Source of the DNA: an uncultured Verrucomicrobiota bacterium
Lineage (GTDB): Bacteria; Verrucomicrobiota; Verrucomicrobiia; Palsa-1439
Length of the DNA: 64,000 nucleotides
Direction of reading: 5' to 3'
Assembly: GCA_903825435.1 (NCBI GenBank)
Contig: CAIKAP010000081.1
Location: 13,118-77,117 of the forward strand
Below the pieces are notes generated by a model. It did not search any database, was not told the DNA's origin, and saw only the letters and a program-made list of their open reading frames with translations. Positions 16,333 to 39,203 of this stretch are shown piece by piece. The translations under genes and the position numbers were made by a program. Positions within the stretch are counted from its first letter, which is position 1. Each line of letters starts with the position of its first letter.

Positions 16333-16365
16333 AACAAAACTCTCCTTCGTCAGGAGGCCGTCGGA

Positions 16366-16382: not shown

Positions 16383-16471
16383 GTCGCAATGGTGTGGTTT
16401 TCAACCTCCACCACAACAGTCACTTCCGGTTTTGCGATGAACACACACCAACATCGCTGGTCGTCGAAAAC

Positions 16472-16496
16472 TGACCAGCGTGGTCAAATCACGCCA
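16472..16496. promoter_or_regulatory. palindromic upstream site TGACCAGCGTGGTCAAATCACGCCA (putative enhancer-binding-protein UAS)
   Basis: TGACCA-N3-TGGTCA inverted repeat ~90 bp upstream of the sigma-54 promoter; related copies at 18424, 29767, 36667, 43288. Confidence 0.5.
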
Positions 16497-16508
16497 ATAC
16501 CGTTTCGC

Positions 16509-18285
<1,777 letters not shown>

Positions 18286-18319
18286 GACAAATCTCCTTCG
18301 TCGGTTGACTGGCACGAAT

Positions 18320-18335
18320 GCACCGCCTGTGCCAG
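18320..18335 (-). promoter_or_regulatory. sigma-54 promoter for amt (second paralog)
   Basis: minus strand CTGGCACAGGCGGTGCA = TGGCAC-N5-GTGCA (GG/GC correctly spaced). Confidence 0.6.
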
Positions 18336-18382
18336 TGGCGGGGGCGATTTCGACAAACGAAGCCGGTGCAAGCACTTCCGCA

Positions 18383-18450
18383 CAACCGGAATAAAACCGG
18401 AACATGACGCCGGTGCGGTCAACTAACCAACGTGGTCAATTTCCGACACC
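18383..18450. repeat. 68-bp composite repeat: GTTCCGG element (rc) + TAACCAACGTGGTCAATTTCCGACACC upstream site; left copy of kdp-flanking direct repeat
   Basis: about 91% identical to 29727-29792; lies in the divergent amt/kdpA intergenic region. Confidence 0.75.
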
Positions 18451-22230: not shown

Positions 22231-22769
22231 AACTACTCATCCAATCCATTTTGTTGACGGTCATTTTCACCATCATCACCGGCATCCTGTATCCGCTGGC
22301 GATTACCGGCATCGCACAAGTCGCGTTTCCCCGGCAAGCCAACGGCGACGTGACGCTGCTGGCGCAGAAATTTACCGGCGATAAATACTTCTGGCCGCGT
22401 CCGTCGGCCTGCGATTACGCGACCGTGCCGTCCGGCGCCAGCAACCTCGGCCCGACCAGCGCAGCGCTGCAATCCAACGTCGCCGCGCGCGTGGCGTTGC
22501 TCGGCACGAATGCACCCGCCGACATGCTGTATGCTTCCGGCAGTGGGCTTGACCCGCACATCAGTCCGGAGGCGGCACGCTTTCAAGTTAAGCGCGTCGC
22601 GGCGGCGCGCACCGCCGAGGTCGCCAAGGTGAGCGCGCTCGTTGAAAGGTTCATCGAGCCGCTGCAGTGGGGCTTTCTCGGCGAGCCGCGTGTGAATGTT
22701 TTGAAACTAAATCTGGCGCTCGACCAACAAGAATCAGGAGGGCATCATGAAGATCAAGCCCGGCATTAA
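22227..22769 (+). CDS. kdpC: potassium-transporting ATPase subunit C
   Basis: 180 aa, N-terminal TM helix, KdpC-like; overlaps kdpB stop. Confidence 0.85.
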
Positions 22770-23667
22770 AGACGTTCTGTGGATGGCCGCCGGTGCGGCT
22801 ATCCTGCTCGTGGTCATCGTGGCGATGTTGCATTTCTACAAAGACTGGAATCCTGCTGCGCAACTCGCCTTCAAAGCCCGTCGAGGTGATCTGGTGGGAC
22901 GGATGCAATTGGACCTGGCCTCTGCCTCGGAGACGGAGAAAAGTGCGGTTCTCGCCATCACCGATGAAGAGTCACAGAAGTTCGCCGACCAAGCCCGCGC
23001 AGCGTCGGCAAAGGTGGAGCAGGAACGTCGTGAACTCGGAGAACTTCTGGCGGCAGGCGGCACGCAAGGCGAGAAGGATCTGCTGGCTCAATTCGCCACG
23101 GCTTTCGCCGAGTTTCAGCACATTGACAACGATCTGCTCGCGTTGGCGGTCAAGAACACCAACCTCAAGGCGTCCAGCCTCACGTTCGGCCCGGCCGCCG
23201 CCGCGCTGAAGGAAATGGACGCCGCGCTGGCGCGGCTCATGACCGACGACGCGAAAGTCGTGCGCCTCGCTGACGACGCACGGATCGCCGCGTGGCGGCT
23301 GCTGGCGTTGCTGCCGCCGCACATCGCCGAGGAGGACGAAAAGAAGGAAGACGCGATGGAAGCGTTGATGGCCACGGAAGATGCGCAGGTCCGTAAAAAT
23401 CTGGATATGCTCGCGGCGCTCCCGCAATTCACCAGCAATCCCGAACTGGCAACCGCCGCGGCGCGTTATGCCGAGTTCAGCAAACTCAAAACACAAATCC
23501 TCGCACTCTCCCGCGAGAACACCAACGTCCGTTCGCTGTCCATATCGCTGAATCAAAAGCGCAAGGTGACACTGGTGTGCCAGGACGCGCTGAACGCCTT
23601 GCAGCAGGCCATCCAGGCGGAACCCATCGCCGGGGTTACGTACGGAAAACCGATGAGTCCGCGTTGA
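22747..23667 (+). CDS. membrane-anchored coiled-coil hypothetical protein, translationally coupled to kdpC
   Basis: overlaps kdpC 3' end by 23 nt; single N-terminal TM then helical Ala/Leu-rich domain; no recognisable catalytic motif. Confidence 0.45.
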   Translation: MKIKPGIKDVLWMAAGAAILLVVIVAMLHFYKDWNPAAQLAFKARRGDLVGRMQLDLASASETEKSAVLAITDEESQKFADQARAASAKVEQERRELGELLAAGGTQGEKDLLAQFATAFAEFQHIDNDLLALAVKNTNLKASSLTFGPAAAALKEMDAALARLMTDDAKVVRLADDARIAAWRLLALLPPHIAEEDEKKEDAMEALMATEDAQVRKNLDMLAALPQFTSNPELATAAARYAEFSKLKTQILALSRENTNVRSLSISLNQKRKVTLVCQDALNALQQAIQAEPIAGVTYGKPMSPR

Positions 23668-23729
23668 CTGGCGGCAGTTGCAGTTACCGTCCTCTCTTTG
23701 TTGTAGATGCTTGCCTCCCGATGTGGCTT

Positions 23730-24683
23730 CTAAAGTGAGCAAAGCCAGCGCGTCAAAGAGGCGATTTGGCCTTCGTCGGTAAGGTTGGCAGCATTTTCAA
23801 TCTTACCGGATTGAAGCTGCGACCAGATTTCTTTTGCCATTTTCGTTTCGATGGCCGCGCCAATGAAGAACGTGTGGGGTTTCTGTTTGTGCTTGGCGAA
23901 CGATGTTTGGATGCGATCCAGAGCGGTGCGGGCGGTCTTCCAGTGTTCGTCCGCACCGGCAGGGTCAATGCCGCCTTTCAATTCGCCGAGTGCGATGTAG
24001 GCTGCGGCGTTGCCGTATACCTGCCGGCACAGGGCTTCGGGGGCGGAGTTGAAAAGCGACAGATCAACGTTGTTGCGAAATAACGGCACCGTCAGGTTGT
24101 AGATCAAGGTTCTGGTCTTACCATTGATCTGCCAACTCAGGCCGCGGACGTGGAGTTCTATGTCGGCGTCATCTTCTGGCGTGTCCGACCAGACGTTGCT
24201 CTCACCGTGCAACCACCGGTAGCCGTTGCCCGCTAATTTGAGGTGCGCGATGATCGAGCGCGTAAGTTTGCACTGTGCCATGAAACCGCCAGCATTTCGC
24301 ATTGAGCCGCCCAACGTATCGCCGCGTGTGAGCAAGAATCGGAAGACAAGTTCCTCAACAAAATTCATACCGGCTGGTTCGAGAAAATTCGCGATTAGCT
24401 CTTCGACGGCTTTGCGCTTGTCGGCCTTTTGTAGGTGGTTCGCAGCCTTGTCGGAAATGCCGGCTGCCGTTACCAGTCCGGATTGGATTGCTGGAATCTT
24501 CAGGAGGTCAGACGGTCGCTGTGCTTGAGATGCAGCAGCCTTCAAGGCACGCGCCTGAACCACATAGGGAGTCGCTCGGCGGTTCTTCTCCAATGCGAGC
24601 GCGACAAAGCCGGCACGAACGGCTTCATAGGTGGTTTCAAGATCAGCCGCAGACTTCAGGTGGGAGCGATAGGGTTTGTTCAT
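23730..24683 (-). CDS. putative Type II restriction endonuclease (partner of adjacent methyltransferase)
   Basis: 317 aa, no recognised family; tail-to-head with the MTase 3 bp away; reduced GC; assignment is by context. Confidence 0.45.
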
Positions 24684-24686
24684 GGT

Positions 24687-26276
24687 TCAACGTTTCCGCC
24701 AGACGTACACGCATTTTCGCAGCGGGTCGCGTCCGTGTGCGCCCATTTGTTGGCTGCTGTTTCCTTTTCCGTTTGGCAAAACCAAAATGCTTTCGATGTT
24801 GAAGCCGAGTTGTGCGGCCATTTCCGAGAGAATAAGGTCCACCGCAATGCTCGCACCGGCATAGCGCACGTTGTCATTGACCATGATAAGCGGCGCGCCA
24901 CGTTTCAACACGCGGACACTCTCGGCAATGACACAGGCCATTTCGTAGAAGTACCCTCGCACCATACGAGGAATGCCGGTATTGTTCAGCAGGTCGAGTT
25001 CTCGCTGAGAATCCAGATACCGCAGGATGCGTTGAAGCAGGGGGAGTTCGTTTGCCACGGCCAGAGCGTGTTTCCACTTTGGATTGAGTGCAAGCATGTC
25101 CTTCTCACGGTTCTCGACGGTGCAACTTAACATAGCCTGTCGCAGTTTAACCAAGCCAGCCTCGTCCACGCCGAGCAACGCAAGTTCCAACGCGTATGTG
25201 CGGGTGTAGTCGTAGCGGTTGCAGTAGGGCGGCGATGTGAGAATACAGTCGTAAGCAGCAGCTTTGAACGTCGGCATGATCTCCAAACAAGAACCGCTGT
25301 GCAAAACCACGTCGGCGCGCGAGTGTGTCGTGAAAAACAAGTCTTCGGGAATTGTTGCTGCTCCGAGATCGTCAACGATCTCGCCGAGTTTGCCTTTGAT
25401 GGCTTCATCGAAAGGTTGAATCCGTCCTTTGTCGAAGATCTTCTTCCCGATACGACGACCGGAACGATAATCCCATCGCAGATACTGCCCATCCTTGCGC
25501 GTAAAACCGACCGACTCAAGAACGCAAAGCAATGCGAACCGTAGAATCGCCTTCACAACGTCGTTCTCATGCTCGGAAGCGGCCAAGTATCTCCCGATGG
25601 CTTTGACTGTCGCCGGTGGGTACGCCCCCTTCGTGATGCGTAGTTCGTTAATCGAACGGCATTCCTTGGAGTGTTGCCACGGTTGCCGAACCTTCCATCG
25701 TGTGAGCGTTTCGATGTCTGGAGGACGGAACTCCAAATCAATCATCTGCTTGGTTTCGATGATGGTCTGCCCGATTGGCAGAAGTTCGATTCCTTCCGCT
25801 TTCATTCCCATCGCGCCAGCCGCAAACAAGGCCGTGCCACTCCCTGCAAATGGATCGAGCAGGACGCCGGAGGACAAATGGAAACGATTCAGAAAATGCT
25901 CAACCAGTCCGGCGGAAAACGCTTCCTTGTATTTGTACCACCGGTAAACGGCGCGGCTTTTGTTCGCCTGAAAGCTCACGAGCGAGCGCGTCAGTTCGTT
26001 GGCGACAACGATCTTGTGTCGCCAACGACGCTCCAAATCAGAACTTAAGGCGTCAATCTCCCGCAGTGCCGGGGAATCCACAACCTCGCCGTTCTTGGGC
26101 TCGCGCGCATCATCTAAAACGGCCGGAGACGCCAGCGCAAAAGATACAGACTGCACCTTCCTTGGCGGCTGTTCCATCGTTTGGGTGCCGAGCGTTTCCT
26201 CACGCACACGGGGTGTGCGGCGCTTCTTCGGCAAATACGTGACTTGTTTCCTCGGCATCAGCGCGGAGTATGCCAA
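24687..26276 (-). CDS. alpha-class DNA methyltransferase (N4-cytosine or N6-adenine; motif I ... TRD ... SPPY)
   Basis: motif I LLDPFAGSGT about 280 aa before motif IV ILTSPPYCNRYDYT; true start may be internal (MEQPP). Confidence 0.75.
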   Translation of the reverse strand: MAYSALMPRKQVTYLPKKRRTPRVREETLGTQTMEQPPRKVQSVSFALASPAVLDDAREPKNGEVVDSPALREIDALSSDLERRWRHKIVVANELTRSLVSFQANKSRAVYRWYKYKEAFSAGLVEHFLNRFHLSSGVLLDPFAGSGTALFAAGAMGMKAEGIELLPIGQTIIETKQMIDLEFRPPDIETLTRWKVRQPWQHSKECRSINELRITKGAYPPATVKAIGRYLAASEHENDVVKAILRFALLCVLESVGFTRKDGQYLRWDYRSGRRIGKKIFDKGRIQPFDEAIKGKLGEIVDDLGAATIPEDLFFTTHSRADVVLHSGSCLEIMPTFKAAAYDCILTSPPYCNRYDYTRTYALELALLGVDEAGLVKLRQAMLSCTVENREKDMLALNPKWKHALAVANELPLLQRILRYLDSQRELDLLNNTGIPRMVRGYFYEMACVIAESVRVLKRGAPLIMVNDNVRYAGASIAVDLILSEMAAQLGFNIESILVLPNGKGNSSQQMGAHGRDPLRKCVYVWRKR

Positions 26277-26370: not shown

Positions 26371-29025
26371 ATGACCGAGCCGCAACGACCGGATCCGGAC
26401 AAGCTGTTGGCGTCGCTCCAGCGCGCGGAGGCGAAACGTCAGCGGGGACGGCTGAAGATTTTCTTCGGCATGTGTCCGGGTGTCGGCAAAACCTACGCGA
26501 TGCTGGAGAGCGCGCGCCGGTTGGTGGCGCAGCGCGAGGATGTCGTGGTCGGGCTGGTCGAGACGCACGGCCGGACGGAGACGGCGGCGTTGCTGGAAGG
26601 TCTGACTATCGCACCACGCAAGAAAATTCCCTATCGCGGCGTGACGCTGGAGGAAATGGATCTCGACTGGATTCTCCAGCGACGTCCGCAGGTCGCAGTC
26701 GTGGACGAACTGGCTCACACGAACGCGCCGGGTTCGCGTCACGTGAAGCGGTACCAAGACGTACTCGAATTGCTGGATGCCGGGATTGATGTGTTGACGA
26801 CGTTGAATGTCCAGCACATCGCCAGCCGGGCGGACACGGTGCGGCAGATTTCGGGCGTGGCGGTGCACGAGACGGTGCCGGACACGGTGTTCGAGGCGGC
26901 GGATGAGATCGAGCTGGTGGATTTGTCGGTCGAGGATTTGCGGAAGCGGCTGGAGGAGGGGAAGGTTTATCTCGGCGAGCGCGCGATGACGGCGGCGGAG
27001 AATTTCTTCCGGGAAGGCAACCTGAGCGCGCTGCGCGAAATGTCGTTGCGGCTGACGGCCGAGCGCGTGGACCAACAGGTGCGCGAGTCGCGCGAGGACC
27101 AGCAGGTTGCGGAAGTCTGGAAGGCAGGCGAACGGTTGATGGTCGCGGTGAGCAGCAGCCCGGCGTCGGCGCGGTTGATCCGGTGGACGCGACGGATGGC
27201 GTTTGCGTTGAAGGCGCCGTGGCTGGCGGTGTGTGTGAAGCCGACGCGCAAGCTGACGGAGGACGCCGAGCGGCAGTTGACGAGCAACCTCGAAGTGGCG
27301 CGCGAACTCGGCGCGGAAGTCGTGATGACCAGCGGCGACGATATCGTCGAGGCGCTGTTGCGCGTGGCGCGCGAGCACAACGTCACGCAGATTGTCGTCG
27401 GCCAATCCGGACAACATCCGCTTATCGAGATGTTGCGTGGCGGCATCGTGAACCGGCTGACGCGGCTGGCGGGCGACATTGACGTGTACGTCGTGCGCTC
27501 GGAAAGCGGGCAACAACGGTGGCGGTGGCGTCTGCCCGAGCCGTCGTTGCGGTCGCCGCCGCGCGAGTACGCGATCAGCGCGGCGACGGTGGCGGGGTTG
27601 ACGCTGGTGAACTGGTTTATCGCGCCGGTGGCGGGTTACCAGGCGGTGGCGTTGTTCTATCTGCTGGCAATCGTGGTGCTGGCGCTGGCGCTCGGACGCG
27701 GTCCGGTGATGCTGGCGGCGCTGTTGGGCGCGCTATTGTGGGATTACCTGTTCATCCCGCCGTTGTTTACGTTCTACATCTCGAAGTTTTCCGACATCAC
27801 GATGTTGGCGGCGTACTTCGTCGTGGCGCTGGTGACCGGCCACCTGACGTCGCGGCTGCGCGCGCAACAGATCGCGGAGCGGCGCCGCGAAGAGCGCGCG
27901 ACGGCGTTGTACGAGCTGGCGCGCGACGTGGCGGGCGCGGCAAATCTCAGCGAGGTGATCGGCTTGGCGTCGCGGCAGGTGGGGGCGTTGTTCGGTTGCG
28001 ATCTGGCGGTGTTGTTGCCCACGGCCAACGGCCTCGCCGCGCACGCGGCCGGCAGCGCGATGGTGGACGAGAAGGAGCGTGGCGTGGCGCAATGGGCGCT
28101 CGATCACCGGCAGACGGCGGGCCGGTTCACGGACACGCTGCCGTCGTCGCGCGGGATGTACGTGCCGTTGCGGGCGGCGAGCGGCTGCGTCGGCGTGATG
28201 GGCGTGTTGTCGCGCGAGGAGCGGGAGTTGACGCTGGAGCAGCGGGATTTGCTGGAGACGTTCGCGTCGCAGATCGCGATGGTGATCGAACGGGAACGGT
28301 TGCAGACGGAGGCGCACGGCGCGGAGGTGCTGTCGCAAGCGGAGCAATTGCACCGGACGTTGTTGAACTCGGTGTCGCACGAGTTGCGGATTCCAATCGC
28401 CGCTGTGCTGGCGGCGGCGGAAGGCTTGGAGAAACGGGTCGCGCCGACGGAGAATTCGCTCGTCGGCGAAATCCGCGAGGCGGCGCTGCGATTGAACGCG
28501 CTCGTGCGAAACCTGCTGGACATGGCGCGGCTGGAGTCGGGGATGTTGAAGCCGAAGATGGAATGGTTCGAGGTCGGCGAACTGGTCAACGCGGTCGTGG
28601 AGGAACATTTCAAATTGTTCGAGCATCACGAGCTGTCGTTGTCGCTGCCGGACGGGCTGCCGTTGGTGTACGGCGATTTTGGATTGCTGCAACAAGCGCT
28701 CGGTAACCTGCTCCAGAACGCGCGCCGCTACACGCCTTCCGGCACCGAGATCAAAATCTCGGCGGCGGTGGACGAGCGGGAGTTGTTGTTGAGCGTCGCC
28801 GACAACGGTCCCGGCTTCGGCGTGGACAATCCGGAAATGTTGTTCCAGAAATTCCAGCGCGGCGCGGGCGCGGCGCCGGGCGGAGCGGGGCTTGGTCTGT
28901 CGATTGTAAAAGGTTTTGTCGAAGCGCACGGCGGGCGCGTCGAGGCGCGCAATCGCGACGACGGCGGTGCGCAGGTGACGATCCGGTTGCCGCTGCCGCA
29001 ACAACCGAAGGAGCTGGCGACATGA
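26371..29025 (+). CDS. kdpD: KdpD sensor histidine kinase
   Basis: N-terminal KdpD domain (KIFFGMCPGVGKTYAML), Usp-like domain, 4 TM, HisKA (LNSVSHELRIPI) and HATPase (GLGLSIV) regions. Confidence 0.9.
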   Translation: MTEPQRPDPDKLLASLQRAEAKRQRGRLKIFFGMCPGVGKTYAMLESARRLVAQREDVVVGLVETHGRTETAALLEGLTIAPRKKIPYRGVTLEEMDLDWILQRRPQVAVVDELAHTNAPGSRHVKRYQDVLELLDAGIDVLTTLNVQHIASRADTVRQISGVAVHETVPDTVFEAADEIELVDLSVEDLRKRLEEGKVYLGERAMTAAENFFREGNLSALREMSLRLTAERVDQQVRESREDQQVAEVWKAGERLMVAVSSSPASARLIRWTRRMAFALKAPWLAVCVKPTRKLTEDAERQLTSNLEVARELGAEVVMTSGDDIVEALLRVAREHNVTQIVVGQSGQHPLIEMLRGGIVNRLTRLAGDIDVYVVRSESGQQRWRWRLPEPSLRSPPREYAISAATVAGLTLVNWFIAPVAGYQAVALFYLLAIVVLALALGRGPVMLAALLGALLWDYLFIPPLFTFYISKFSDITMLAAYFVVALVTGHLTSRLRAQQIAERRREERATALYELARDVAGAANLSEVIGLASRQVGALFGCDLAVLLPTANGLAAHAAGSAMVDEKERGVAQWALDHRQTAGRFTDTLPSSRGMYVPLRAASGCVGVMGVLSREERELTLEQRDLLETFASQIAMVIERERLQTEAHGAEVLSQAEQLHRTLLNSVSHELRIPIAAVLAAAEGLEKRVAPTENSLVGEIREAALRLNALVRNLLDMARLESGMLKPKMEWFEVGELVNAVVEEHFKLFEHHELSLSLPDGLPLVYGDFGLLQQALGNLLQNARRYTPSGTEIKISAAVDERELLLSVADNGPGFGVDNPEMLFQKFQRGAGAAPGGAGLGLSIVKGFVEAHGGRVEARNRDDGGAQVTIRLPLPQQPKELAT

Positions 29026-29693
29026 GTCCGGTGGCGTTGATCATCGAGGACGAAATCCAGATGCGGCGCCTGTTGCGCGTCGGCCTGGAAGGCGCGGGCT
29101 ACAAAGTCGGCGAGGCGTCGGACGGCCAGCAGGGATTGCAGGAGATCGTGTACCAGCGACCCGACGTGGTGCTGCTCGATTTGGGATTGCCCGACATGGA
29201 CGGCGTCGAGGTGCTGAAACGGTTGCGCGAGTGGTCGCATGTGCCGGTGGTGGTGTTGACAGTGCGCGAGGACGAACACGACAAGGTCCGTGCGCTCGAC
29301 GCGGGCGCGGACGATTACCTGACGAAACCGTTCAGCACGGCGGAACTGCTGGCGCGGTTGCGGGCCGTGCAACGGCGCGCGCCCGAGGCGCAGGAGGAAC
29401 CGGTGTTTGTGTGCGGTGATCTCACGATGGATTTCGTCGCGCGAACGGTGGCGGTGAAGGGCAGGGAGGTGCATCTGACGGCGACGGAGTATTCGCTATT
29501 GCACGAACTGGTTCGCCACGCAGGTAAGGTGGTGACGCACAAACAACTGTTGCGCGCCGTCTGGGGACCGCAGGCCGAGACGCAGTCGCAGTACCTGCGC
29601 GTCTACATCACGCACGTGCGCCAGAAGTTGGAGTCCGCGGGCCGTCTGATCCGCAACGAGCCTGGTGTCGGCTACAGGTTGCTCACCGGCTAG
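29022..29693 (+). CDS. kdpE: KdpE OmpR-family response regulator
   Basis: receiver domain (VLLDLGLPDMDG) + winged-helix C-terminus; overlaps kdpD stop. Confidence 0.9.
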   Translation: MSPVALIIEDEIQMRRLLRVGLEGAGYKVGEASDGQQGLQEIVYQRPDVVLLDLGLPDMDGVEVLKRLREWSHVPVVVLTVREDEHDKVRALDAGADDYLTKPFSTAELLARLRAVQRRAPEAQEEPVFVCGDLTMDFVARTVAVKGREVHLTATEYSLLHELVRHAGKVVTHKQLLRAVWGPQAETQSQYLRVYITHVRQKLESAGRLIRNEPGVGYRLLTG

Positions 29694-29726
29694 ACACGGA
29701 TTGGTACCAGAAACCGGTAAAAACGC

Positions 29727-29792
29727 AGCCGGAACAAAACCGGAACATGACGCCGGTGCAGTCAACTAACCAGCGTGGTCAATTCCCGACAC
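29727..29792. repeat. right copy of 68-bp composite repeat (GTTCCGG element rc + TAACCAGCGTGGTCAATTCCCGACAC)
   Basis: about 91% identical to 18383-18450, same orientation, 34 bp after kdpE stop; no sigma-54 promoter or gene follows it. Confidence 0.75.
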
Positions 29793-29817
29793 TGCGTCGC
29801 ACCGCGTTGGCGAAACT

Positions 29818-30837
29818 TTAGCTTTGGCCGCTTTCTGCCTGCCGTGTAATCGCCGGTAACTGAAGCCTCTCGATTCGTTGCATGCCGAGAGGTTGGGGAC
29901 TTCCACCCGCCAGTACGCGACCGACGTTTTCTTGAATTGATACGACATCCCACTGAATGGTTTGATAGATCACATAGCGATCCTGCCACACATGCACGTG
30001 GTCGCGCATTTCCTTGACAAGAAGCTTTCTCGCTTTGTCGGACTGTTGAATCGCTTCTTCAAGCGGGACTTTGTAGGTCGGACTTGTGATGTAATTCAAC
30101 ATCTGTGTTGCCACGCGGTTCTTTTCTTCACCGTCCAGCTTCGCCTTGGTCATTTCGACGATGTGAGCGCGGCAAAGATGCGCGAGGGGCACAACTCCGA
30201 GTGGTGCAACGATCAGGACGTTGCCTTCACGCCCCAAACCGGTAAACCCCTTCTTGATACCCGTCGTGATTAGAATCGCGAAGTGAGCCTCACGAATTCG
30301 CTTTGCCTCCGCTGTTTGGTGAATGTGTGACGGCAAAATGCTGGGTGTTCGTTTGCACTCGTAGATAATCACACCAGCCTGACGCCCTTGAAAGATGACA
30401 GCATGGAGAATATCCCCTCCCTTGCCCTTGTGCTCGATTCGATCCTGAGGAAACTCCTTCTGTAGGCGTCTGCACAGTGTATCTTCAAACTCCAAGCCTT
30501 CTGTTTGCGGCGTCGTCCCTTTGGCCAATTGCGCGATGCGCGCATTCGCAATCTCCAACTTCTTCTGTAGTCCAGCCGTCAACCGTTCCTGCCGCTTTCT
30601 CTCCACCAGTGCTCCCTTCTTTTGCCCGTCTGCGTCTGCCTCTTTTAATCGTTGGCGTGTTTGGGAGAGTTGCTTCTTCAAGGAACTCGTGGCTTGTTGT
30701 GCCTGATGCAGCAGGCGATTGGCCTTCTCAATGTCTGCCTTCTGAGCCTTCTCCCTCTCGGCCTGAATATGCAGAACCGCTTCGTACTTGCCCTTCGCTA
30801 ACGTGCTTCCACAGAGCGGACACTTGTATGTCTTCAT
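29818..30837 (-). CDS. DUF2130-family protein (N-terminal zinc ribbon, coiled coil, C-terminal PD-(D/E)XK-like nuclease core)
   Basis: start MKTYKCPLCGS (GAGGAG RBS; ATG at 30835-30837); coiled-coil middle; D...ECK motif (GGDILHAV...IIYECKR); GC about 50%. Confidence 0.65.
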   Translation of the reverse strand: MKTYKCPLCGSTLAKGKYEAVLHIQAEREKAQKADIEKANRLLHQAQQATSSLKKQLSQTRQRLKEADADGQKKGALVERKRQERLTAGLQKKLEIANARIAQLAKGTTPQTEGLEFEDTLCRRLQKEFPQDRIEHKGKGGDILHAVIFQGRQAGVIIYECKRTPSILPSHIHQTAEAKRIREAHFAILITTGIKKGFTGLGREGNVLIVAPLGVVPLAHLCRAHIVEMTKAKLDGEEKNRVATQMLNYITSPTYKVPLEEAIQQSDKARKLLVKEMRDHVHVWQDRYVIYQTIQWDVVSIQENVGRVLAGGSPQPLGMQRIERLQLPAITRQAESGQS

Positions 30838-31112
30838 AGTCTCCTCGTGTAAGAAGGTTGCGACCGCTGGAGCGGTCTTGACCAATCAAAACCACTTCTG
30901 GCGAACGCTTTTGACGGGACTCGTGAATAGTCCGGAGATTTACTCCTGACACCGAACACTCGTCGGTGTTCCGGCAACACCGTATCTGCTGGCGTTTGTA
31001 GCAGTGTGGGCGCTTGAGCATTCTGTCCAGCGGCTTCTTCCTTCGTTTTCATTCCGCCACTTTATGCGAGGACATGGCAGCATAAAACAGACACGCGGTC
31101 TGAGGGGATGTC

Positions 31113-31883
31113 CTATTTTTTTGAGCGCGGCCGGCCGCGTTTTTTGAAGTGCAATCCGATTCGCCGACAGAGTTGCTGTACCATTTGCTGGTCTGCGAGT
31201 TCCAGTTCCGGTGTCTTGCCGCGCATTGAGGGAATGCGCGCCGTAAGCCAATGATACAACTCAGTCGTGCTACCGAGTGCTGAGACTTCCCACCAGTTTT
31301 CAAGCAGCGCCGAATAGATCGGTAAAGCGGTCGTGTGTCTGGCCGGCCTGCCCTGATCATCTAGAAGCTTAACGTGCAGTCCGCGAGCAAAGCCATCAAA
31401 CCACGCAATCGCGTGTTGGAAGGAAAAGAACTTCGCAGAGCCTATGCGCTGTTTGAGCGATTCAATCTGTTCTTCGTCCCTGAATAGTTTGTGTTCCTCT
31501 GTTGGGTGAAACTCTGAAGCCATCAAACAACCAGCATAAAAGCCTTCTTTTCGGCTCAAACTTTCTGGTGTCGCGTCATCTTCAATCTCCCATTTCGGCA
31601 ATGGAAACATCGCTTGGATTCTTTGACGAACAGTGACGACCCATTCAGGAACTGTTCGCTCCGACCAGAAGAGAAGCTCTTCCAACTCCTTTGGAACACA
31701 GTTTTCTCGTTTTATGTCCTCAAGAATGTCGTTCGGGAACATCGAGCGGATCATGGCGGACATCCATCGCACCAAGTAAAGCAAGCCCTCTATTTCGCGC
31801 GGGGGTCGTACCCCACGCCGCTTACAGTCCTCCGCAATCTCAATAACCTTGCGGAGTGCATCTTTGCTGGTGTCGTCCGACAT
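31113..31883 (-). CDS. hypothetical protein (no recognisable domain), co-oriented with the DUF2130 gene
   Basis: 256 aa, low GC, no TM; a GC-rich hairpin and stop codon lie at its 3' end. Confidence 0.5.
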   Translation of the reverse strand: MSDDTSKDALRKVIEIAEDCKRRGVRPPREIEGLLYLVRWMSAMIRSMFPNDILEDIKRENCVPKELEELLFWSERTVPEWVVTVRQRIQAMFPLPKWEIEDDATPESLSRKEGFYAGCLMASEFHPTEEHKLFRDEEQIESLKQRIGSAKFFSFQHAIAWFDGFARGLHVKLLDDQGRPARHTTALPIYSALLENWWEVSALGSTTELYHWLTARIPSMRGKTPELELADQQMVQQLCRRIGLHFKKRGRPRSKK

Positions 31884-31916
31884 GCAAGCATCCTACCTGT
31901 CATGTCGCCGGCACGC

Positions 31917-31985
31917 AAGCTGGAGTCCGCGAGCCGCCTGATCCGCAACGAGCCGGGCATCGGCTACCGGCTGTTGGCGGACTAA
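31917..31985 (+). pseudogene. orphan 3' fragment of an OmpR-family response-regulator gene (kdpE-like tail KLESASRLIRNEPGIGYRLLAD*)
   Basis: about 80% nucleotide and 18/22 amino-acid identity to the kdpE 3' end at 29625-29693; no receiver domain upstream. Confidence 0.7.
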
Positions 31986-34126
31986 GCCTGTGGCGGGCGG
32001 CCTTTCCGGAAGAGGCGGATTGGCAGAATCACCACAGGCACACCGGCGAAACGGAGGCGGCGCTGGATGAAATAGGAGGTGTCGTTGTGCAGCATCCGGT
32101 CGTACCAGCGCGGTTCGTCGAACACGATCTCGCCGGCAAAGACGACGGCGCGCGGATATTCGCGGTGCATCTCCAGGCAGAGCGTGGAGACTTCCTCGAC
32201 GACGTCCAACCCGATGCGGTGCGCCCCGCGCGCGGGCACGCCGAGGCGATGGGAGAACTCGATGTATTGGTCGAGGGTGTCACGCGTGCGTTTCTCCAGA
32301 TGCTCGACTTGGTTTTCGCCCTTGAAGAACTCGGAGTTCATCACGCCGACGGAGACGAAGACGACGTTTTGGAACGTCTTCGGGAACATGCGGAAGATGT
32401 TCAGGAGGCAATGGATGCCGAGCTTGGCACTGCCGCCGACGAGGATGACGGCAGTCGGTTTCTTCGGGTCGAACTCGGGCAGCGTTGATGCGTTGGTGCT
32501 GGTGGGAATGTTGTCGAGGGAGCTTTCGACTTCGCGGACACGTCGGGCAACGTCGCGATAGTGCGAGCGGATGAGGAAACAAAGGCCAATGCAGAGGCCG
32601 GTCACGGCGAGTGTGACCCAGCCGCCTTCGCCCAGTTTCTCGATGAGCATCACCGCCAGGATCGAAAGGCACAACACCAGACCGGTCGCGTGCACGGGCA
32701 AATGTTGTTTCCATTTTGGGTCGGTCTTGCGGTGTCGGATCCAGAACCGGACCATGCCCATTTCCGAGAGCGAGAACGTGGCGAAGACGTTGATGCTGTA
32801 CATGACGACCAGCAACGTAATACTGCCGCGCGTGTACGCCAACGCCCCCGCGGCAGCGGTGCCGATCAGTAGCACGCCGTTCTGTGTCGTGAGCCGGTCG
32901 GAGAGCGCGGCGAACCGGCGTGGTAACCACGAATCGAGCGCCATGTTGGCCATCACGCGCGGGCCGTCAATGAAACCGGTTTGCGCCGCGACGAGCAGCA
33001 GGACCGATTCCGACAGAATCGTGACCGCCGCGAACCATTTCCCGACCGGTAACCCGGCGACCTGCCAGTTGCCGGCAAACGCGTTCGCGAGGACGGTGTT
33101 CAGGGTTTGACCCTCGACGGGTTTCACGCGGAAGAGCATGTAGCAGAGGAGCAGTCCGCCGGCGGTCAACGCGAGCGAGACGGCCATGTAGGTCATGGTG
33201 CGTTTGCCGGTCTGGACTTTCGGGTCGCGCATGATGCCAAGGCCGTTGGACACGGCCTCGATGCCGGTGTAGGTGCCCGCGCCGAGCGAGTAGGCGCGCA
33301 TGACCAGCAGGAATAATTTCCAGCCGCCCAACATCAACCACGCCTCGCGCCAGCCGGCGCGCGCCTGGTGCACCACCATCGGCGCGTCGCCGACGTGCAT
33401 CAACAGGCCGCCACCGATCAGGATGATGTGCGTGACGATGAACGTCAGGAACACGGGCACGAGCATCGAGACTGATTCCTTGACGCCGCGCATGTTCATC
33501 ACGGTCAACAACACGATCGTGCCGAACTCCACCGGCAGCTTGAAATGCTGGTAGTGCAGCGGCAACAAACTGAACAGGGCGTCAGTGCCGCTGGCGATGG
33601 AGACGGTGATGGTGAGGATGTAGTCCACCAGCAACGCGCAGCCGGAGACAACGCCGGCAGTGTTGCCGAGCAGTTCGGTGGCAACGACGTAACCGCCGCC
33701 GCCATGAGGGAAATGCTCGATGATGCGGCTGTACGCGTAGGAAATGATGAACACCGTAAGTGCCGTTGCCGCGGCGAGCACGACGGCAAGCCAGACATTG
33801 TTGCCGAGCGCCTTGTATGCTTCCTCGGGGCCGTAAGCTGACGACGACAGGCCGTCCGCGCCAAGGCCGACCCACGCAAGAAACGCGATGAGCGAAATCT
33901 TGTGGACAAGCGACGGGTCTTTCAGGTCGCGCGGAGCGCCGAGCACGGCGCGTCGCAACTTCTTACCAAACGTTTGGGGCAATTGCCCCGGTGCAACCGG
34001 TTCCATACTGTCCTCTCGCTTGCCTACGAGGTTAGCTGACGGGCTAAGAGGGAGAAGAACGACTCTCTTCTCCGAACATGTCGGAGTTAGCCCCAAACGA
34101 CTTGGGTCCCCCGTTCCGCGCGACAC
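31982..34126 (-). CDS. APC-superfamily amino acid/polyamine permease with extended cytoplasmic C-terminal domain
   Basis: 12 TM APC-like core (GAGTYTGIEAVSNG) + ~220-aa soluble C-terminus; real start probably internal (MEPVAPGQ, near 34005). Confidence 0.6.
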   Translation of the reverse strand: MSRGTGDPSRLGLTPTCSEKRVVLLPLSPSANLVGKREDSMEPVAPGQLPQTFGKKLRRAVLGAPRDLKDPSLVHKISLIAFLAWVGLGADGLSSSAYGPEEAYKALGNNVWLAVVLAAATALTVFIISYAYSRIIEHFPHGGGGYVVATELLGNTAGVVSGCALLVDYILTITVSIASGTDALFSLLPLHYQHFKLPVEFGTIVLLTVMNMRGVKESVSMLVPVFLTFIVTHIILIGGGLLMHVGDAPMVVHQARAGWREAWLMLGGWKLFLLVMRAYSLGAGTYTGIEAVSNGLGIMRDPKVQTGKRTMTYMAVSLALTAGGLLLCYMLFRVKPVEGQTLNTVLANAFAGNWQVAGLPVGKWFAAVTILSESVLLLVAAQTGFIDGPRVMANMALDSWLPRRFAALSDRLTTQNGVLLIGTAAAGALAYTRGSITLLVVMYSINVFATFSLSEMGMVRFWIRHRKTDPKWKQHLPVHATGLVLCLSILAVMLIEKLGEGGWVTLAVTGLCIGLCFLIRSHYRDVARRVREVESSLDNIPTSTNASTLPEFDPKKPTAVILVGGSAKLGIHCLLNIFRMFPKTFQNVVFVSVGVMNSEFFKGENQVEHLEKRTRDTLDQYIEFSHRLGVPARGAHRIGLDVVEEVSTLCLEMHREYPRAVVFAGEIVFDEPRWYDRMLHNDTSYFIQRRLRFAGVPVVILPIRLFRKGRPPQA

Positions 34127-34177
34127 GCGGATTCGGCATCGGCGGGGAAGATAGTCCCCGCCGCTGTTTTGTCAAGC

Positions 34178-36734: not shown

Positions 36735-39203
36735 ATGGTCAAAAGATTCTCCACGTTTAGGGCGGCTCTTGTTAAGTCCAAGACTGAAGAGGAAGTCAAA
36801 CATGCCTACGCCGAACATTTCGGATTGGATTATGACACGGAGTTTCGCCACGACCTGTATTCCCGGGAAGTCTTCTACGAATTCAAATTCTCGCGCAGTC
36901 TGCAAAAGCGGGAGTCTCGCGCTGCCGTCATCGCGCAAGTGTTGTATTACGTTCGGCAACTGCGTTTTGGTCACGCAGACAAGGTTGTTCCGCCAGTGAT
37001 TTGCATTGCGGAGGGAAAGCAGGCTTTTTTCACAGAGACGAACAAGTGGCGGAAGTTTTATAGCAACGACAGCAAATACGATTGGGAACTTGCTCCGAGC
37101 AATCCGGACAAGCAATTGATTGCAGACCTCGTCGCTTTTCCGGAGACGAACAGCATCAAGGTCTTTGATGTTCTCGATGAAGCCGAGTATGAGATGTTCA
37201 AGCAGCTTCTTGAACATCATCGCGCTACGCAGCTTGCGTTGGATTTCCGAGTTAAGAAGCTCATCACCGAGGACAATTTCGAGGAAGTTTTTGATTATTG
37301 GAACAAATGTTTCGGCGAAGACGTCCGCAACGGAACGAAACCTTCGCGTTACTTTTTGTGCGACATCCAGCAAGGCCGTTCGCTCTACGATCGGAAAGAA
37401 AATAAAGTCGTATTTTTTGTTGGCCCGGAGGAGAAGCGCGCGAAGAAAATCCTGCCGAAAGAATATGAGTGGTTTTGGTCGAACTACGAGAAAGTCACCA
37501 ATGCTGACACCGCGCGCAACATCCTTGCGAAAGTCGACCGTCTGACCGAGGAGCCGATCCGCCGATTCACGGGCGAGTTTTTTACTCCTGTTCCTTTTGC
37601 TCGGAAGGCTCATCAATATCTTGAAAGGGTTCTCGGACCGAAGTGGTGGACGAAGAATTATCGCCTTTGGGATATGGCAGCAGGCACGGGAAATCTGGAA
37701 TGGTTTCTCCCCGCCGATTCTTACAAGAGCATTTACCTTTCGACGCTCTATGAAGAGGACGTGCAGCATTGCAAGCGCGTGTTTCCGGGGGCGACCATTT
37801 TCCAGTATGATTATCTGAATGATGACGTTGACAGTGTTTTTGATCAGCAATTACTCTTTAAGCAGCCCCGCAAAATGCCCGAGAGTTTATTGCGAGATCT
37901 GGCAAATCCAAAAATCAAATGGATCGTTTTCCTCAACCCACCGTTTGCCACGTCGAATAAGACGGGTTTCACCGGCGAAAGCAAGAAAAGCGTGAGCGAC
38001 ACTAAAATCCGCCCGCTCATGCACGAGCAGGGCCTGGGCGAAGTCTCGCGTGAATTGTTCGCGCAATTTGCTTTTCGCATCCAGCGGGAGTTCAGCGGCA
38101 AGAAGGCGTTTCTCGGTCTTTTCTCCAAGCTCAAATATGTCAACGCCAATAACGACCAGAAATTCCGTGATAACGTTTTCCAGTTTTTATTCAAAGACGG
38201 CTTTATGTTTTCGTCGGCGACATTTTCAGGCACTCAGCCAACGAATTCATTTCCGGTCGGCTTCCTAATTTGGGATTTATCGCGCCGCAAAAAACTTGAA
38301 GAACAAAACATTGAAGTCGCCATCCTCGATGCCGACACGAGCAAAATTGGACGAAAACGAATCGTCGCCGAACATCGCTCGCGCTTCTTGAGCAAATGGA
38401 TTGACCGACCGCCAACCACGGAAATCTTTCCGCCGTTTAGCAGCGCAATTTCTGTGAATGACGGCAACACAGACATCCGCGACCGTGTCGCGAAAGGTTT
38501 TCTTGCTTCGTTCATGTGCAAGGGAAACGACGTGCAAAATCACAACAACGTCGCCTTGCTCTCCGGCCCGTATGTCAGCGCGGGCGCGTTGTCCGTCGTA
38601 CCGGACAACTTCGATAAGGCGATGGTCGTTCACGCCGTCCGCAGGAGCGTTCGCCAGGGTTGGATTAACGACCGTGACCAATTCCTCCAACCCAAAGAAC
38701 AACCGGGCGCGAGTTTTGTGGTGCGCTGCGTGGTCAGAAGTCTGTTCGCCAATTCCAATGAGACCGTTTCACTGCGGAACGTTGCGTACGAGGGGAACAC
38801 GTTTCAGGTCGTTAATCATTTTTTCCCATTCAAAGTTGCCGTACTAAAGAAGTGGGAAATTTCCGATTCCGACATCAAGCATTCACTGGCGCGCGACACC
38901 GACGACCGCTTCGTTGCTAACTGGCTGGCAAAACAAAAACTGGACGCATCCAGCCGGGAACTGTTGGAACTCGGTCGTGAAATCTACAAGGCGTTTTTCA
39001 AGAACTTCAAAGATCTGCCGACCGCAAAATACAAAATCGAGCATTGGGATGCCGGTTGGTGGCAAATCAAACGATGCCTCGTCGAAGCCGGCTTGGAGAA
39101 AGAGCGCTTTGCACGAGTTGAAGAAATCAAGAAACAGTTAAACGCCGAAATTAGTGAAACGGCCTTGCAGTTGGGGATGATTGCCACCGTAGATTTGTTC
39201 TGA
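36735..39203 (+). CDS. Type IIG-like restriction-modification enzyme (N-terminal nuclease-like region + gamma-class N6-adenine MTase + C-terminal TRD), horizontally acquired
   Basis: 822 aa; motif X GEFFTP, motif I WDMAAGTGNLEW, motif IV FLNPPFATSN; candidate D...EGK nuclease motif near residue 80; GC well below flanks. Confidence 0.7.
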   Translation: MVKRFSTFRAALVKSKTEEEVKHAYAEHFGLDYDTEFRHDLYSREVFYEFKFSRSLQKRESRAAVIAQVLYYVRQLRFGHADKVVPPVICIAEGKQAFFTETNKWRKFYSNDSKYDWELAPSNPDKQLIADLVAFPETNSIKVFDVLDEAEYEMFKQLLEHHRATQLALDFRVKKLITEDNFEEVFDYWNKCFGEDVRNGTKPSRYFLCDIQQGRSLYDRKENKVVFFVGPEEKRAKKILPKEYEWFWSNYEKVTNADTARNILAKVDRLTEEPIRRFTGEFFTPVPFARKAHQYLERVLGPKWWTKNYRLWDMAAGTGNLEWFLPADSYKSIYLSTLYEEDVQHCKRVFPGATIFQYDYLNDDVDSVFDQQLLFKQPRKMPESLLRDLANPKIKWIVFLNPPFATSNKTGFTGESKKSVSDTKIRPLMHEQGLGEVSRELFAQFAFRIQREFSGKKAFLGLFSKLKYVNANNDQKFRDNVFQFLFKDGFMFSSATFSGTQPTNSFPVGFLIWDLSRRKKLEEQNIEVAILDADTSKIGRKRIVAEHRSRFLSKWIDRPPTTEIFPPFSSAISVNDGNTDIRDRVAKGFLASFMCKGNDVQNHNNVALLSGPYVSAGALSVVPDNFDKAMVVHAVRRSVRQGWINDRDQFLQPKEQPGASFVVRCVVRSLFANSNETVSLRNVAYEGNTFQVVNHFFPFKVAVLKKWEISDSDIKHSLARDTDDRFVANWLAKQKLDASSRELLELGREIYKAFFKNFKDLPTAKYKIEHWDAGWWQIKRCLVEAGLEKERFARVEEIKKQLNAEISETALQLGMIATVDLF

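What the first reader, a model, noticed from the sequence alone, without database searches (positions are those of the whole stretch)
29694..31985. Low-GC two-gene block (DUF2130 nuclease-like + unknown 256-aa protein) swapped in downstream of kdpE, leaving a duplicated kdpE 3' end
Immediately after the block there is an orphan, in-frame copy of the last 22 codons of an OmpR-type regulator (31917-31985). It is about 80% identical at nucleotide level to the true kdpE tail (29625-29693). This means the cargo arrived by recombination within kdpE from a donor that carried its own kdpE allele. That is a gene-3'-end-targeting replacement without an integrase in sight. The cargo is about 50% GC versus about 63% for the flanks. 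DUF2130 proteins carry a zinc ribbon, a coiled coil and a D...ECK motif, and the partner protein has no recognisable domain. Such pairs are typical of uncharacterised anti-phage or toxin modules, making this a candidate undescribed defence cassette.
Basis: partly seen in the sequence, partly recalled or inferred. Interest (0 to 1): 0.65.

Follow-up and report, generated by a model that had tools for sequence, protein, structure and literature searches.

The report
Foreign nuclease gene pair displacing kdpE's end
A small, horizontally acquired pair of genes (a DNA-cutting enzyme and an unknown DNA-binding-like partner) sits between two potassium-uptake loci of a Verrucomicrobia genome; it brought a replacement end for the regulator gene kdpE and left the old end as a stub, which is a known style of gene acquisition, and its function is still untested.

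Summary
kdpE (29022-29693) ends in a 69-nt tail that recurs, in frame and with its own stop, at 31917-31985 (55/69 nt, 18/22 aa; next best match in the window is 36/69). Between the copies lie two minus-strand genes with GC3 0.56-0.59, against 0.80-0.85 in the flanks. The tails differ mostly at synonymous sites (dN/dS 0.16), so they are two kdpE alleles, not a decaying duplicate. The orphan's stop overlaps the stop of a KimA-like K+ importer that has a c-di-AMP riboswitch, so the orphan is the resident end. No integrase was found.

The most likely history is an import anchored by homology in kdpE and joined illegitimately at 31916/31917, a C-terminal displacement. An integrase acting in trans is not excluded.

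The pair recurs in two other contexts. The nuclease also occurs alone, and the partner family also occurs beside an integrase or an Xis-like gene. A defence role is plausible but unproven. Interest is moderate.

The parts
29022..29693 (+). kdpE, an intact 223-aa OmpR-type response regulator. Its last 22 codons (29625-29693, 'tail A') are the copy now in use. The segment from 29609 onward may be donor-derived.
   Evidence: Pfam Response_reg plus Trans_reg_C. A variant contig, L094, is 100% identical from 28373 to 29608 and diverges from 29609.
29726..29792 (+). 67-nt element, 93% identical to 18383-18449 (the region upstream of kdpA). It starts with a dispersed 22-nt motif, CCGGAACAAAACCGGAACATGA. 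On the minus strand it folds into a long hairpin followed by UUUUUA, which could be a terminator for the nuclease gene.
   Evidence: The minus-strand fold is -34 kcal/mol, z -2.4.
29818..30837 (-). 339-aa short DUF2130-family PD-(D/E)xK nuclease. It has an N-terminal CPLCG knuckle, a 92-residue helix, a restriction-endonuclease-like core (D142, E160-C-K162) and a C-terminal helical hairpin.
30838..31112 (-). 275-nt spacer between the two cargo genes. It is about 205 nt longer than in L002 and L096 (60-63 nt). A weak terminator-like hairpin lies at 31102-31088.
31113..31883 (-). 256-aa protein ('p256') of an undescribed family. It is all-helical. The conserved C-terminal ~100 aa end in ...LCRRIGLHFKKRGRPRSKK, a small helical domain followed by an AT-hook-like basic tail.
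31917..31985 (+). Orphan kdpE 3' end ('tail B'): 22 codons plus a TAA stop, with nothing in-frame upstream. It is inferred to be the resident, displaced end.
   Evidence: Its TAA (31983-31985) overlaps the TAG of the convergent APC gene (31984-31982).
31982..34006 (-). KimA/YdaO-like APC-superfamily transporter (674 aa from the ATG at 34006). It is the right-hand neighbour, on the same strand as the cargo, with no terminator predicted between it and p256.
   Evidence: Pfam AA_permease_2. The exact 674-aa product is on record. Terminator scan.
34006..34148 (-). c-di-AMP riboswitch (ydaO/yuaA leader) in front of the APC gene.
   Evidence: Rfam RF00379, 71 bits against a gathering score of 38, E 1.8e-14.

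Best explanation
What it is. A ~2.1-kb horizontally acquired islet lies in a Verrucomicrobiota chromosome. It sits between the convergent genes kdpE and a KimA-like K+ importer controlled by a c-di-AMP riboswitch.

How it got there (inferred). Originally kdpE ended with tail B, and its stop overlapped the importer's stop. DNA from a related donor then recombined, with homology inside kdpE as the anchor. That DNA carried the donor's own kdpE 3' end (tail A), a short host-like element and the two cargo genes. Its far end was joined illegitimately at 31916/31917. This is homology-facilitated illegitimate recombination, giving a 'C-terminal displacement'. kdpE stays intact with the donor's end, and the resident 22 codons are left as an orphan. 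No dedicated recombinase is needed.

What the cargo is. The fold and motifs are shown; the activity is inferred. One gene encodes a short DUF2130-family enzyme. It has a restriction-endonuclease-like PD-(D/E)xK core with invariant D142/E160/K162, mounted on a ~90-residue helix. It starts with a conserved CxxC knuckle that has only two conserved Zn ligands, so it probably dimerises. The gene upstream encodes p256, an all-helical protein of an undescribed family with a small C-terminal helical domain and a basic RGRPR tail. p256 is most likely the DNA-binding or regulatory partner.

Most likely function (inferred, low confidence). A nuclease-based conflict module, either defence or addiction. 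Both genes are under purifying selection, and the pair travels as a unit within this clade. In this genome it may be transcribed by read-through from the riboswitch-controlled importer gene.
For: Structure of the locus:
- The tails are 55/69 identical and in frame, with a sharp edge at 31917. The next best match in the window is 36/69.
- They differ at 8 synonymous and 5 non-synonymous sites, dN/dS 0.16, which indicates two functional alleles.
- The orphan's stop overlaps the APC stop. This needs no coincidence only if tail B and the APC gene are the old junction.
- Cargo GC3 is 0.56-0.59 against 0.80-0.85 in the host genes.
- No integrase, no tRNA and no terminal inverted repeats around the block.
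- Another contig of the same population, L094, is 100% identical over 1,236 nt up to 29608. This point falls right after the QYLRVY codons. It then carries a third tail and a different downstream gene. That is expected if homologous crossovers resolve at the last conserved stretch of kdpE.
- The mechanism has precedent (PMC3240628; PMC5361080).

Cargo:
- The pair is conserved in L002 (about 78% nt identity, next to kdpA) and in L096 (p256 45% and nuclease about 65% aa identity, a different neighbourhood).
- dN/dS is 0.03-0.31.
- Nuclease fold and invariant catalytic residues. DUF2130 is listed in the PD-(D/E)xK superfamily (PMC3424549).
- Neighbourhoods of homologues hold toxin-antitoxin, Abi, restriction-modification and integrase genes.
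- The window itself carries BsoBI and MmeI-like restriction-modification systems.
Against: - No close relative with an uninterrupted kdpE-APC junction was recovered, so the direction of the event and the donor are inferred, not shown.
- L094 is a 1.5-kb MEGAHIT contig that ends 138 nt after the variant kdpE's stop (about 240 nt past the breakpoint), so it could be a chimeric assembly.
- The 67-nt element next to tail A is 93% identical to a resident sequence, while the tails are only 80% identical. This fits a one-step import from a diverged donor poorly. It may mean a multi-step history or a dispersed host element.
- On function: there is no hit to any known defence model. The nuclease often occurs without p256. 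Classical DUF2130 genes on plasmids sit among ParB and backbone genes, not defence genes. No activity of any kind has been tested.
Confidence: 0.55

Rival explanations
1. Site-specific integration. The block is a small integrative element, or the remnant of one, that targets the 3' end of kdpE. The two tails are attL and attR. The integrase acted in trans or has since been lost.
For: - Imperfect direct repeats flank the cargo and share a 17-nt identical core.
- The target gene is reconstituted by an element-borne 3' end, as with elements that insert in tRNA genes or in guaA (own knowledge).
- A distant p256-family gene overlaps the stop of a tyrosine-integrase gene in L098, and another sits next to an Xis/MerR-like HTH gene in L097.
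- L094 suggests a second, different insertion at the same place in kdpE.
Against: - No integrase was found in the block, among 29 large ORFs of the window scanned with Pfam, or by tblastn with the L098 integrase.
- Only 33 nt separate p256 from tail B and 124 nt separate the nuclease gene from kdpE, so no room remains for a decayed integrase gene.
- The same pair in L002 and L096 is not next to kdpE.
- L094 breaks at 29609, not at the edge of the repeat (29625) or at its core.
Confidence: 0.2
2. Nuclease-driven spread. The DUF2130 gene is a selfish, homing-endonuclease-like gene. Its product cuts empty sites, and repair copies the gene together with flanking donor sequence. p256 would be a hitch-hiker or a targeting factor.
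For: - Homologues 60-65% identical are solitary inserts at different intergenic positions of nuo operons in two genomes. Each genome has an empty site where the other has the insert. The inserts are bounded by the same 36-nt inverted repeats and lie beside GIY-YIG genes.
- Co-conversion would explain the donor-type tail A.
Against: - Clean homing replaces the recipient flank and does not leave an orphan copy.
- There are no inverted repeats around the block in the window.
- The 36-nt repeats could be a dispersed element of those genomes.
- No cleavage specificity is known for this family.
Confidence: 0.1
3. Local tandem duplication of the kdpE end followed by decay, a remnant of a paralogous regulator gene, or a mis-assembly.
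For: Short repeats can arise by replication slippage, and assemblers can join similar sequences.
Against: - The differences are mostly synonymous and the orphan has no frameshift or internal stop.
- No other regulator-like copy exists in the window; the best other match is 36/69.
- The structure is identical in independent assemblies from several archives.
- The 2.1 kb between the copies has foreign codon usage.
Confidence: 0.03
4. The pair is not a conflict module but serves K+ homeostasis, for example a regulator plus a nucleic-acid enzyme recruited to kdp/kimA loci.
For: - Two of three occurrences lie in kdp loci: kdpE/kimA here and the 3' end of kdpA in L002.
- There is a possible read-through from the riboswitch-controlled importer gene.
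- A copy of the kdpA-upstream element lies next to the block.
Against: - L096 has no kdp genes nearby.
- Other homologues sit in nuo operons, defence-like islands and plasmids.
- The codon usage is foreign.
- The link to kdp genes is equally explained if kdp genes served as homology arms during transfer.
Confidence: 0.07

Closest known systems
C-terminal displacement by homology-facilitated illegitimate recombination (rhs/CDI 3' ends; T6SS effector-immunity arrays in Vibrio cholerae; HFIR in Acinetobacter, Streptococcus, Pseudomonas and E. coli)
   Same: Incoming DNA is anchored by homology in a conserved upstream gene. The new 3' region plus cargo is installed, and the old 3' region is pushed downstream as an orphan. 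No element-encoded recombinase is involved (PMC3240628, PMC5361080).
   Different: The displaced gene here is a housekeeping response regulator, kdpE, not a polymorphic toxin. Only 22 codons are displaced. The cargo is unrelated to the displaced gene. The donor and the microhomology at the illegitimate junction are unknown.
Integrase-borne genomic islands that target the 3' end of a gene (tRNA genes, guaA, rlmH/orfX) and cis-mobilisable elements without an integrase
   Same: Imperfect direct repeats of the target gene's 3' end flank the cargo, and the gene is kept intact by an imported end.
   Different: No integrase was found in the block or elsewhere in the window. The block is very small (2.1 kb). 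The same cargo sits at other, non-kdpE sites in other genomes.
Pfam DUF2130 (PF09903, COG4487), a PD-(D/E)xK family of unknown function
   Same: Shared features are homology (E about 1e-80 to members that pass the Pfam threshold), the D...E-x-K core and the coiled-coil segment. The family is listed as PD-(D/E)xK in PMC3424549.
   Different: This clade is shorter (about 315-340 aa, against 430-535 aa for the plasmid examples). It carries an N-terminal CxxC knuckle. This particular protein falls below detection by the PF09903.14 model.
Structural neighbours of the nuclease core: archaeal Hjc resolvase, Can2/Card1 CRISPR ancillary nucleases, NucC, type II restriction enzymes
   Different: Sequence identity is 7-13%. 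There is no CARF or other sensor domain. The long helix and the CxxC knuckle are absent from these neighbours. Substrate and activation are unknown.
Two-gene nuclease-plus-partner defence systems and type II toxin-antitoxin pairs
   Same: A small operon with a putative DNA-binding protein upstream of a nuclease, with foreign composition, among restriction-modification and toxin-antitoxin genes.
   Different: No PADLOC model matches. The partner is large (256 aa) for an antitoxin. The nuclease often occurs alone. No phenotype is known.

Membership tests
Pfam DUF2130 (PF09903) | Match to the family HMM above the gathering score (26.7 bits) | tested here: inconclusive
   hmmscan of this protein against PF09903.14 finds nothing even at E<=10. 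The precomputed PF09903.15 annotation lists the identical protein P0001 and all 120 listed homologues. Homologues 45-51% identical score 73-87 bits. tblastn hits RefSeq 'DUF2130 domain-containing protein' genes at E 2e-16.
Pfam DUF2130 (PF09903) | PD-(D/E)xK catalytic core (D ... E-x-K on a restriction-endonuclease-like fold) | tested here: met
HFIR / C-terminal displacement | An orphaned resident 3' end lies immediately downstream of the imported segment, and the gene is completed by a diverged allelic 3' end | tested here: met
   Tail A and tail B are 55/69 identical with dN/dS 0.16. The orphan abuts the old neighbour with overlapping stop codons.
HFIR / C-terminal displacement | A homologous crossover upstream in the anchor gene, and microhomology at the illegitimate joint | not testable with these tools
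   This needs the donor sequence and an uninserted relative. Only L094, which breaks at 29609 and may be chimeric, hints at crossovers in this part of kdpE. The metagenome scan failed.
Integrase-mediated genomic island / cis-mobilisable element | A tyrosine or serine recombinase encoded in or next to the element | tested here: not met
   No recombinase domain in the block or in 29 large ORFs of the window scanned with Pfam. tblastn with the L098 integrase found nothing.
Integrase-mediated genomic island / cis-mobilisable element | Flanking direct repeats with an identical core (att sites) at the 3' end of a gene | tested here: met
   69-nt repeats with the 17-nt identical core CTGATCCGCAACGAGCC. 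HFIR predicts the same repeats, so this feature does not discriminate.
Known anti-phage defence systems (PADLOC-DB v2.0.0) | Match of either protein to a defence-system model | tested here: not met
   The nuclease gives only weak LmuB hits in its coiled-coil region (E 1.6e-5 to 9e-4). p256 gives none.
Conserved two-gene module (p256 + short DUF2130) | Adjacent, co-oriented homologues of both genes in unrelated neighbourhoods | tested here: met
   The pair occurs in the window, in L002 and in L096. It is facultative. The nuclease occurs without p256 in L003/L004, L006-L009 and L011. p256 relatives occur without the nuclease in L097 and L098.
KimA/YdaO-type K+ importer with c-di-AMP riboswitch (the right-hand neighbour) | An APC-superfamily permease preceded by the ydaO/yuaA leader | tested here: met
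   AA_permease_2. RF00379 at 71 bits against a gathering score of 38. K+ transport itself was not tested.

The most novel reading that the evidence does not exclude
p256 plus the short CxxC/coiled-coil DUF2130 nuclease is an undescribed two-component nuclease system, either defensive or selfish. It spreads among Verrucomicrobia by carrying fragments of conserved host genes (the kdpE 3' end here, kdpA in L002) as portable homology arms, so it installs itself without a recombinase. In this genome it would be expressed under the c-di-AMP riboswitch of the adjacent K+ importer.
Probability: 0.12. Interest if true: 0.7.

Novelty: new variant of a known kind. Interest (0 to 1): 0.38.

Why it matters
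If the history is right, this is a clean example outside toxin loci of recombinase-free C-terminal displacement. A foreign islet is installed inside a core two-component regulator gene without inactivating it. That bears on how small defence or selfish islets enter streamlined operons in poorly studied phyla.

The cargo gives a testable handle on DUF2130, a widespread PD-(D/E)xK family with no known function. It also defines a partner family with no Pfam model and no structural neighbour. If the pair proves to be a defence or addiction module, it would add a new system.

Without experiments it remains an uncharacterised islet of a familiar kind.

Tried and rejected
- Direct family scans of both proteins (Pfam, NCBIfam, PHROGs, PADLOC) gave nothing usable.
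- PDB sequence searches with single sequences and with profiles were empty.
- Viral-contig scans found nothing for the nuclease family, the p256 family or the dispersed motif.
- The plasmid search for p256 was empty.
- The search for an uninterrupted kdpE-APC junction did not succeed. The GTDB scan with KdpE found no relative closer than 75% aa identity and none with the convergent APC neighbour. The single metagenome scan was lost to a tool error. A first attempt to scan genomes with the p256 alignment failed because it has no conserved block.
- I tested whether the genes upstream of solitary DUF2130 genes are remote p256 homologues (AbiJ_NTD4 protein in L003, 129-aa ORF in L006). They are not: hhalign probability 0.1%.
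- I looked for terminal inverted repeats around the window's block, like those around the DUF2130 genes in nuo operons. There are none.
- I considered that the 67-nt element means the donor had the order kdpE-promoter-kdpA. That order was not seen in Verrucomicrobia relatives, which have kdpABC-kdpDE contiguous, and the element begins with a dispersed motif. This is left unexplained.
- The promoter scan found no sigma-70-like site in the block.
- The literature holds no functional study of DUF2130, PF09903 or COG4487.
Full report
**1. What is in the sequence**

The region reads as follows:
- kdpD, 26371-29025 (+)
- kdpE, 29022-29693 (+)
- a 124-nt gap
- a 339-aa gene, 29818-30837 (-)
- a 275-nt spacer
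- a 256-aa gene, 31113-31883 (-)
- 33 nt
- an orphan kdpE end, 31917-31985 (+)
- an APC-type permease, 31982-34006 (-)

The orphan and the true kdpE tail (29625-29693) are 55/69 nt identical. Both are in frame and both end in a stop. The similarity ends abruptly at 31917. No other place in the window matches the tail better than 36/69.

The same arrangement is present at 99.98% identity in independent ENA assemblies L001 and L095. The exact proteins are recorded on 9-11 contigs from four archives. It is therefore not an assembly artefact.

The two cargo genes have GC3 of 0.59 and 0.56. kdpD, kdpE, kdpA and the permease have 0.80-0.85.

The best relatives of KdpE are Verrucomicrobiia MAGs at 75% aa identity or less. 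The window thus comes from a Verrucomicrobiota genome with no close representative in GTDB.

**2. Which tail is the old one, and how the block arrived**

The two tails differ at 8 synonymous and 5 non-synonymous sites, dN/dS 0.16. That is the signature of two alleles that each evolved as a working gene end. It is not what a duplicate decaying after insertion would show.

The orphan's TAA (31983-31985) overlaps the TAG of the convergent permease gene (31984-31982). If the orphan belonged to the imported DNA, the insertion would have had to end exactly on that overlap. If the orphan is the resident end, no coincidence is needed. I therefore take kdpE(tail B)-permease as the ancestral junction. 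The insert is then the DNA from within kdpE to 31916.

I found no integrase in the block, among 29 large ORFs of the window scanned with Pfam, or by tblastn with an integrase linked to the partner family. There is no tRNA, and no inverted repeats bound the block.

The simplest mechanism is homologous exchange anchored in kdpE combined with an illegitimate join at the far end. This is homology-facilitated illegitimate recombination (PMC3240628). It is the process proposed for 'C-terminal displacement' with orphaned 3' regions in rhs, CDI and T6SS loci (PMC5361080).

One further datum fits this. The 90% cluster of KdpE contains a 228-aa variant, P0191. Its contig L094 is 100% identical to the window over 1,236 nt up to 29608, right after the QYLRVY codons. 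It then carries a third, quite different tail and a different convergent gene. That is what crossovers resolving at the last conserved stretch of kdpE would produce. However, L094 is a short MEGAHIT contig and may be chimeric.

An integrase acting in trans remains a live rival. The repeats share a 17-nt identical core. Distant members of the partner family sit directly behind a tyrosine integrase in L098 or beside an Xis-like HTH gene in L097.

I could not obtain an uninserted relative. The GTDB scan found none, and the metagenome scan was lost to an error.

**3. A complication**

Just after the kdpE stop, positions 29726-29792 are 93% identical to 18383-18449, in the divergent region upstream of kdpA.

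The first 22 nt of this element, CCGGAACAAAACCGGAACATGA, is a dispersed motif with 7 copies in 64 kb, where none is expected by chance. Four of these copies abut compositionally foreign blocks:
- the MmeI-like gene
- the BsoBI restriction-modification system
- this gene pair
- an 822-aa gene of unknown function

On the minus strand the 29726-29792 copy folds into a long hairpin followed by UUUUUA. This is a possible terminator for the nuclease gene.

Verrucomicrobia relatives keep kdpABC-kdpDE contiguous. A donor with the order kdpE-promoter-kdpA is therefore not supported. I leave the element unexplained. It suggests that the history may have had more than one step.

**4. The neighbours**

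Rfam finds a c-di-AMP riboswitch (RF00379, 71 bits) directly upstream of the permease start. The permease is thus a KimA/YdaO-type K+ importer. Such permeases sit next to kdpDE in several phyla.

The cargo lies between two K+ uptake units, on the same strand as the importer gene. No terminator is predicted between them, so read-through transcription is possible. This is inferred, not shown.

**5. The 339-aa protein**

hmmscan does not connect this protein to PF09903 directly. The link comes from its relatives:
- It has 309 homologues, all with a precomputed PF09903 hit.
- Relatives 45-51% identical score 73-87 bits on the model.
- tblastn hits RefSeq 'DUF2130 domain-containing protein' genes on plasmids at E 2e-16.

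DUF2130 is listed as a PD-(D/E)xK family of unknown function (PMC3424549). I found no functional study.

In an alignment of 52 sequences, C9, D142, E160, C161 and K162 are invariant and C6 is nearly so. The AF2 model has mean pLDDT 85. It shows an N-terminal beta-knuckle, a helix spanning residues 15-106, an alpha/beta core and a C-terminal helical hairpin.

Only two Zn ligands are conserved, which suggests an intermolecular site. The motif CPxCG recalls the Rad50 zinc hook. That comparison is from my own knowledge and was not tested.

**6. The 256-aa protein**

It matches no curated family. The word-indexed search found only itself. Exhaustive phmmer found 64 relatives, most of which share the C-terminal ~100 residues...TTATPIY..W.EV..L.SV.EL...RLEKLC.RIGL.F..RGRPRK.

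A DNA-binding or regulatory role is an inference from the basic, AT-hook-like tail and the small helical domain.

**7. Do the two genes belong together?**

Yes, within their immediate clade:
- L002 (about 78% nt identity) carries the same pair with a 63-nt spacer. There it faces the 3' end of kdpA and a decayed antitoxin gene.
- L096 carries a 45%-identical p256 relative 60 nt upstream of a ~65%-identical nuclease, next to an AAA_14/DUF4143 gene.

Both genes are under purifying selection, with dN/dS 0.03-0.31.

The partnership is nevertheless facultative:
- Nuclease homologues 60-65% identical occur alone in a defence-like island with AbiJ_NTD4, PLD, EVE, Dcm and SRAP genes (L003/L004).
- They also occur as solitary inserts at different intergenic sites of nuo operons (L006-L009, L011). 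There they are bounded by identical 36-nt inverted repeats and lie beside GIY-YIG genes.
- Their upstream genes are unrelated to p256.
- Classical, longer DUF2130 genes on plasmids sit among ParB and backbone genes.

**8. Verdict**

The reading of an allelic kdpE end brought in by recombination is the best-supported history, but it describes a known process rather than a new one.

'Candidate defence cassette' remains a hypothesis. The context is rich in restriction-modification, toxin-antitoxin and mobile genes, and the pair is a conserved nuclease-plus-partner module. Against this, no defence model matches, the partner is dispensable for the nuclease elsewhere, and a selfish or addiction role is equally possible.

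I rate the finding as a new variant of a known kind, of moderate interest. Its main value is as an entry point to DUF2130 and to an undescribed partner family.

Noticed in passing
window 34006-34148 (-) and 31982-34006 (-): A c-di-AMP riboswitch (RF00379, 71 bits) lies directly upstream of the APC permease. The permease is therefore a KimA/YdaO-like K+ importer, convergent with kdpDE. Similar permeases lie next to kdpDE in Binatia, Anaerolineales and other lineages.
   Followed up: partly
window 18383-18449 and 29726-29792: A 67-nt direct repeat at 93% identity. The minus strand of each copy folds better than shuffled sequence (z about -2.4). The 29726 copy is followed by UUUUUA.
   Followed up: partly
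window 2707, 18386, 26303, 29729, 39269, 46916, 63660: The dispersed motif CCGGAACAAAACCGGAACAT occurs 7 times (up to 3 mismatches) where none is expected by chance. Four copies abut compositionally foreign genes: MmeI-like, BsoBI R-M, the nuclease pair and the 822-aa gene. It is absent from every other fetched locus except L001, which is the same genome, and from viral contigs. Its function is unknown.
   Followed up: partly
window 22747-26276: A 4HB_MCP-like gene and a complete BsoBI-type R-M system (R 23730-24683, M 24687-26276; GC3 about 0.64) are inserted between kdpC and kdpD. In Verrucomicrobia relatives these genes are contiguous.
   Followed up: partly
window 3223-6039 (-): A full-length MmeI-family type IIL restriction-modification enzyme with all five MmeI domains. 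This is a third foreign defence-type locus in the window.
   Followed up: no
window 36735-39203 (+): An 822-aa ORF with low GC (0.50; GC3 0.60) has no significant match in Pfam, NCBIfam or PADLOC. It is another foreign gene of unknown function, bounded by a copy of the dispersed motif.
   Followed up: no
L094 (ENA k141_101300), equivalent to window 28373-29608: This contig is 100% identical to the window through kdpD and kdpE up to nt 29608. It then carries a different kdpE end (MNHLRRKIEADPTQPRLIKTETGIGYRLLDAER) and a convergent oxidoreductase-like gene. It is either a second haplotype that recombined at the same spot or a chimeric assembly.
   Followed up: partly
L006 7935-9056; L011 7938-9069 and 9412-9449: Solitary DUF2130 genes sit inside nuo operons (between nuoF and nuoG in one genome, between nuoL and nuoM in another). 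They are bounded by the same 36-nt inverted repeat (core GTCATTCTGAGCGCAGCGAAGAATCTC), which also occurs at the 3' end of an adjacent GIY-YIG gene. In L006 an outer 34-nt inverted repeat encloses the whole insert of PhdYeFM, PIN and DUF2130 genes.
   Followed up: partly
L098 3847-5711; L097 993-2306: Distant p256-family genes are coupled to mobile-element genes. In L098 one overlaps the stop of a tyrosine-integrase gene, near AbiE and Eco57I genes. In L097 one lies between a HicA-family toxin gene and an Xis/MerR-like HTH gene.
   Followed up: partly
L002 1344-1642: Between the nuclease gene and the kdpA 3' end of L002 lies a truncated ORF. To my eye its N-terminus resembles HigA-type antitoxins, though no family search was run. 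This suggests that the pair once travelled in a larger island that has since decayed.
   Followed up: no
window 30840-31045: The spacer between p256 and the nuclease gene holds about 205 nt that are absent from L002 and L096. The sequence is not repeated elsewhere in the window or in the fetched loci.
   Followed up: partly
window 14884-18405 (-): Two ammonium-transporter genes lie in tandem, with a PII (GlnB/K)-like ORF between them. They share repeats 76-90% identical with a 1953-1956-nt period. They lie immediately upstream of, and divergent from, the kdp operon.
   Followed up: no
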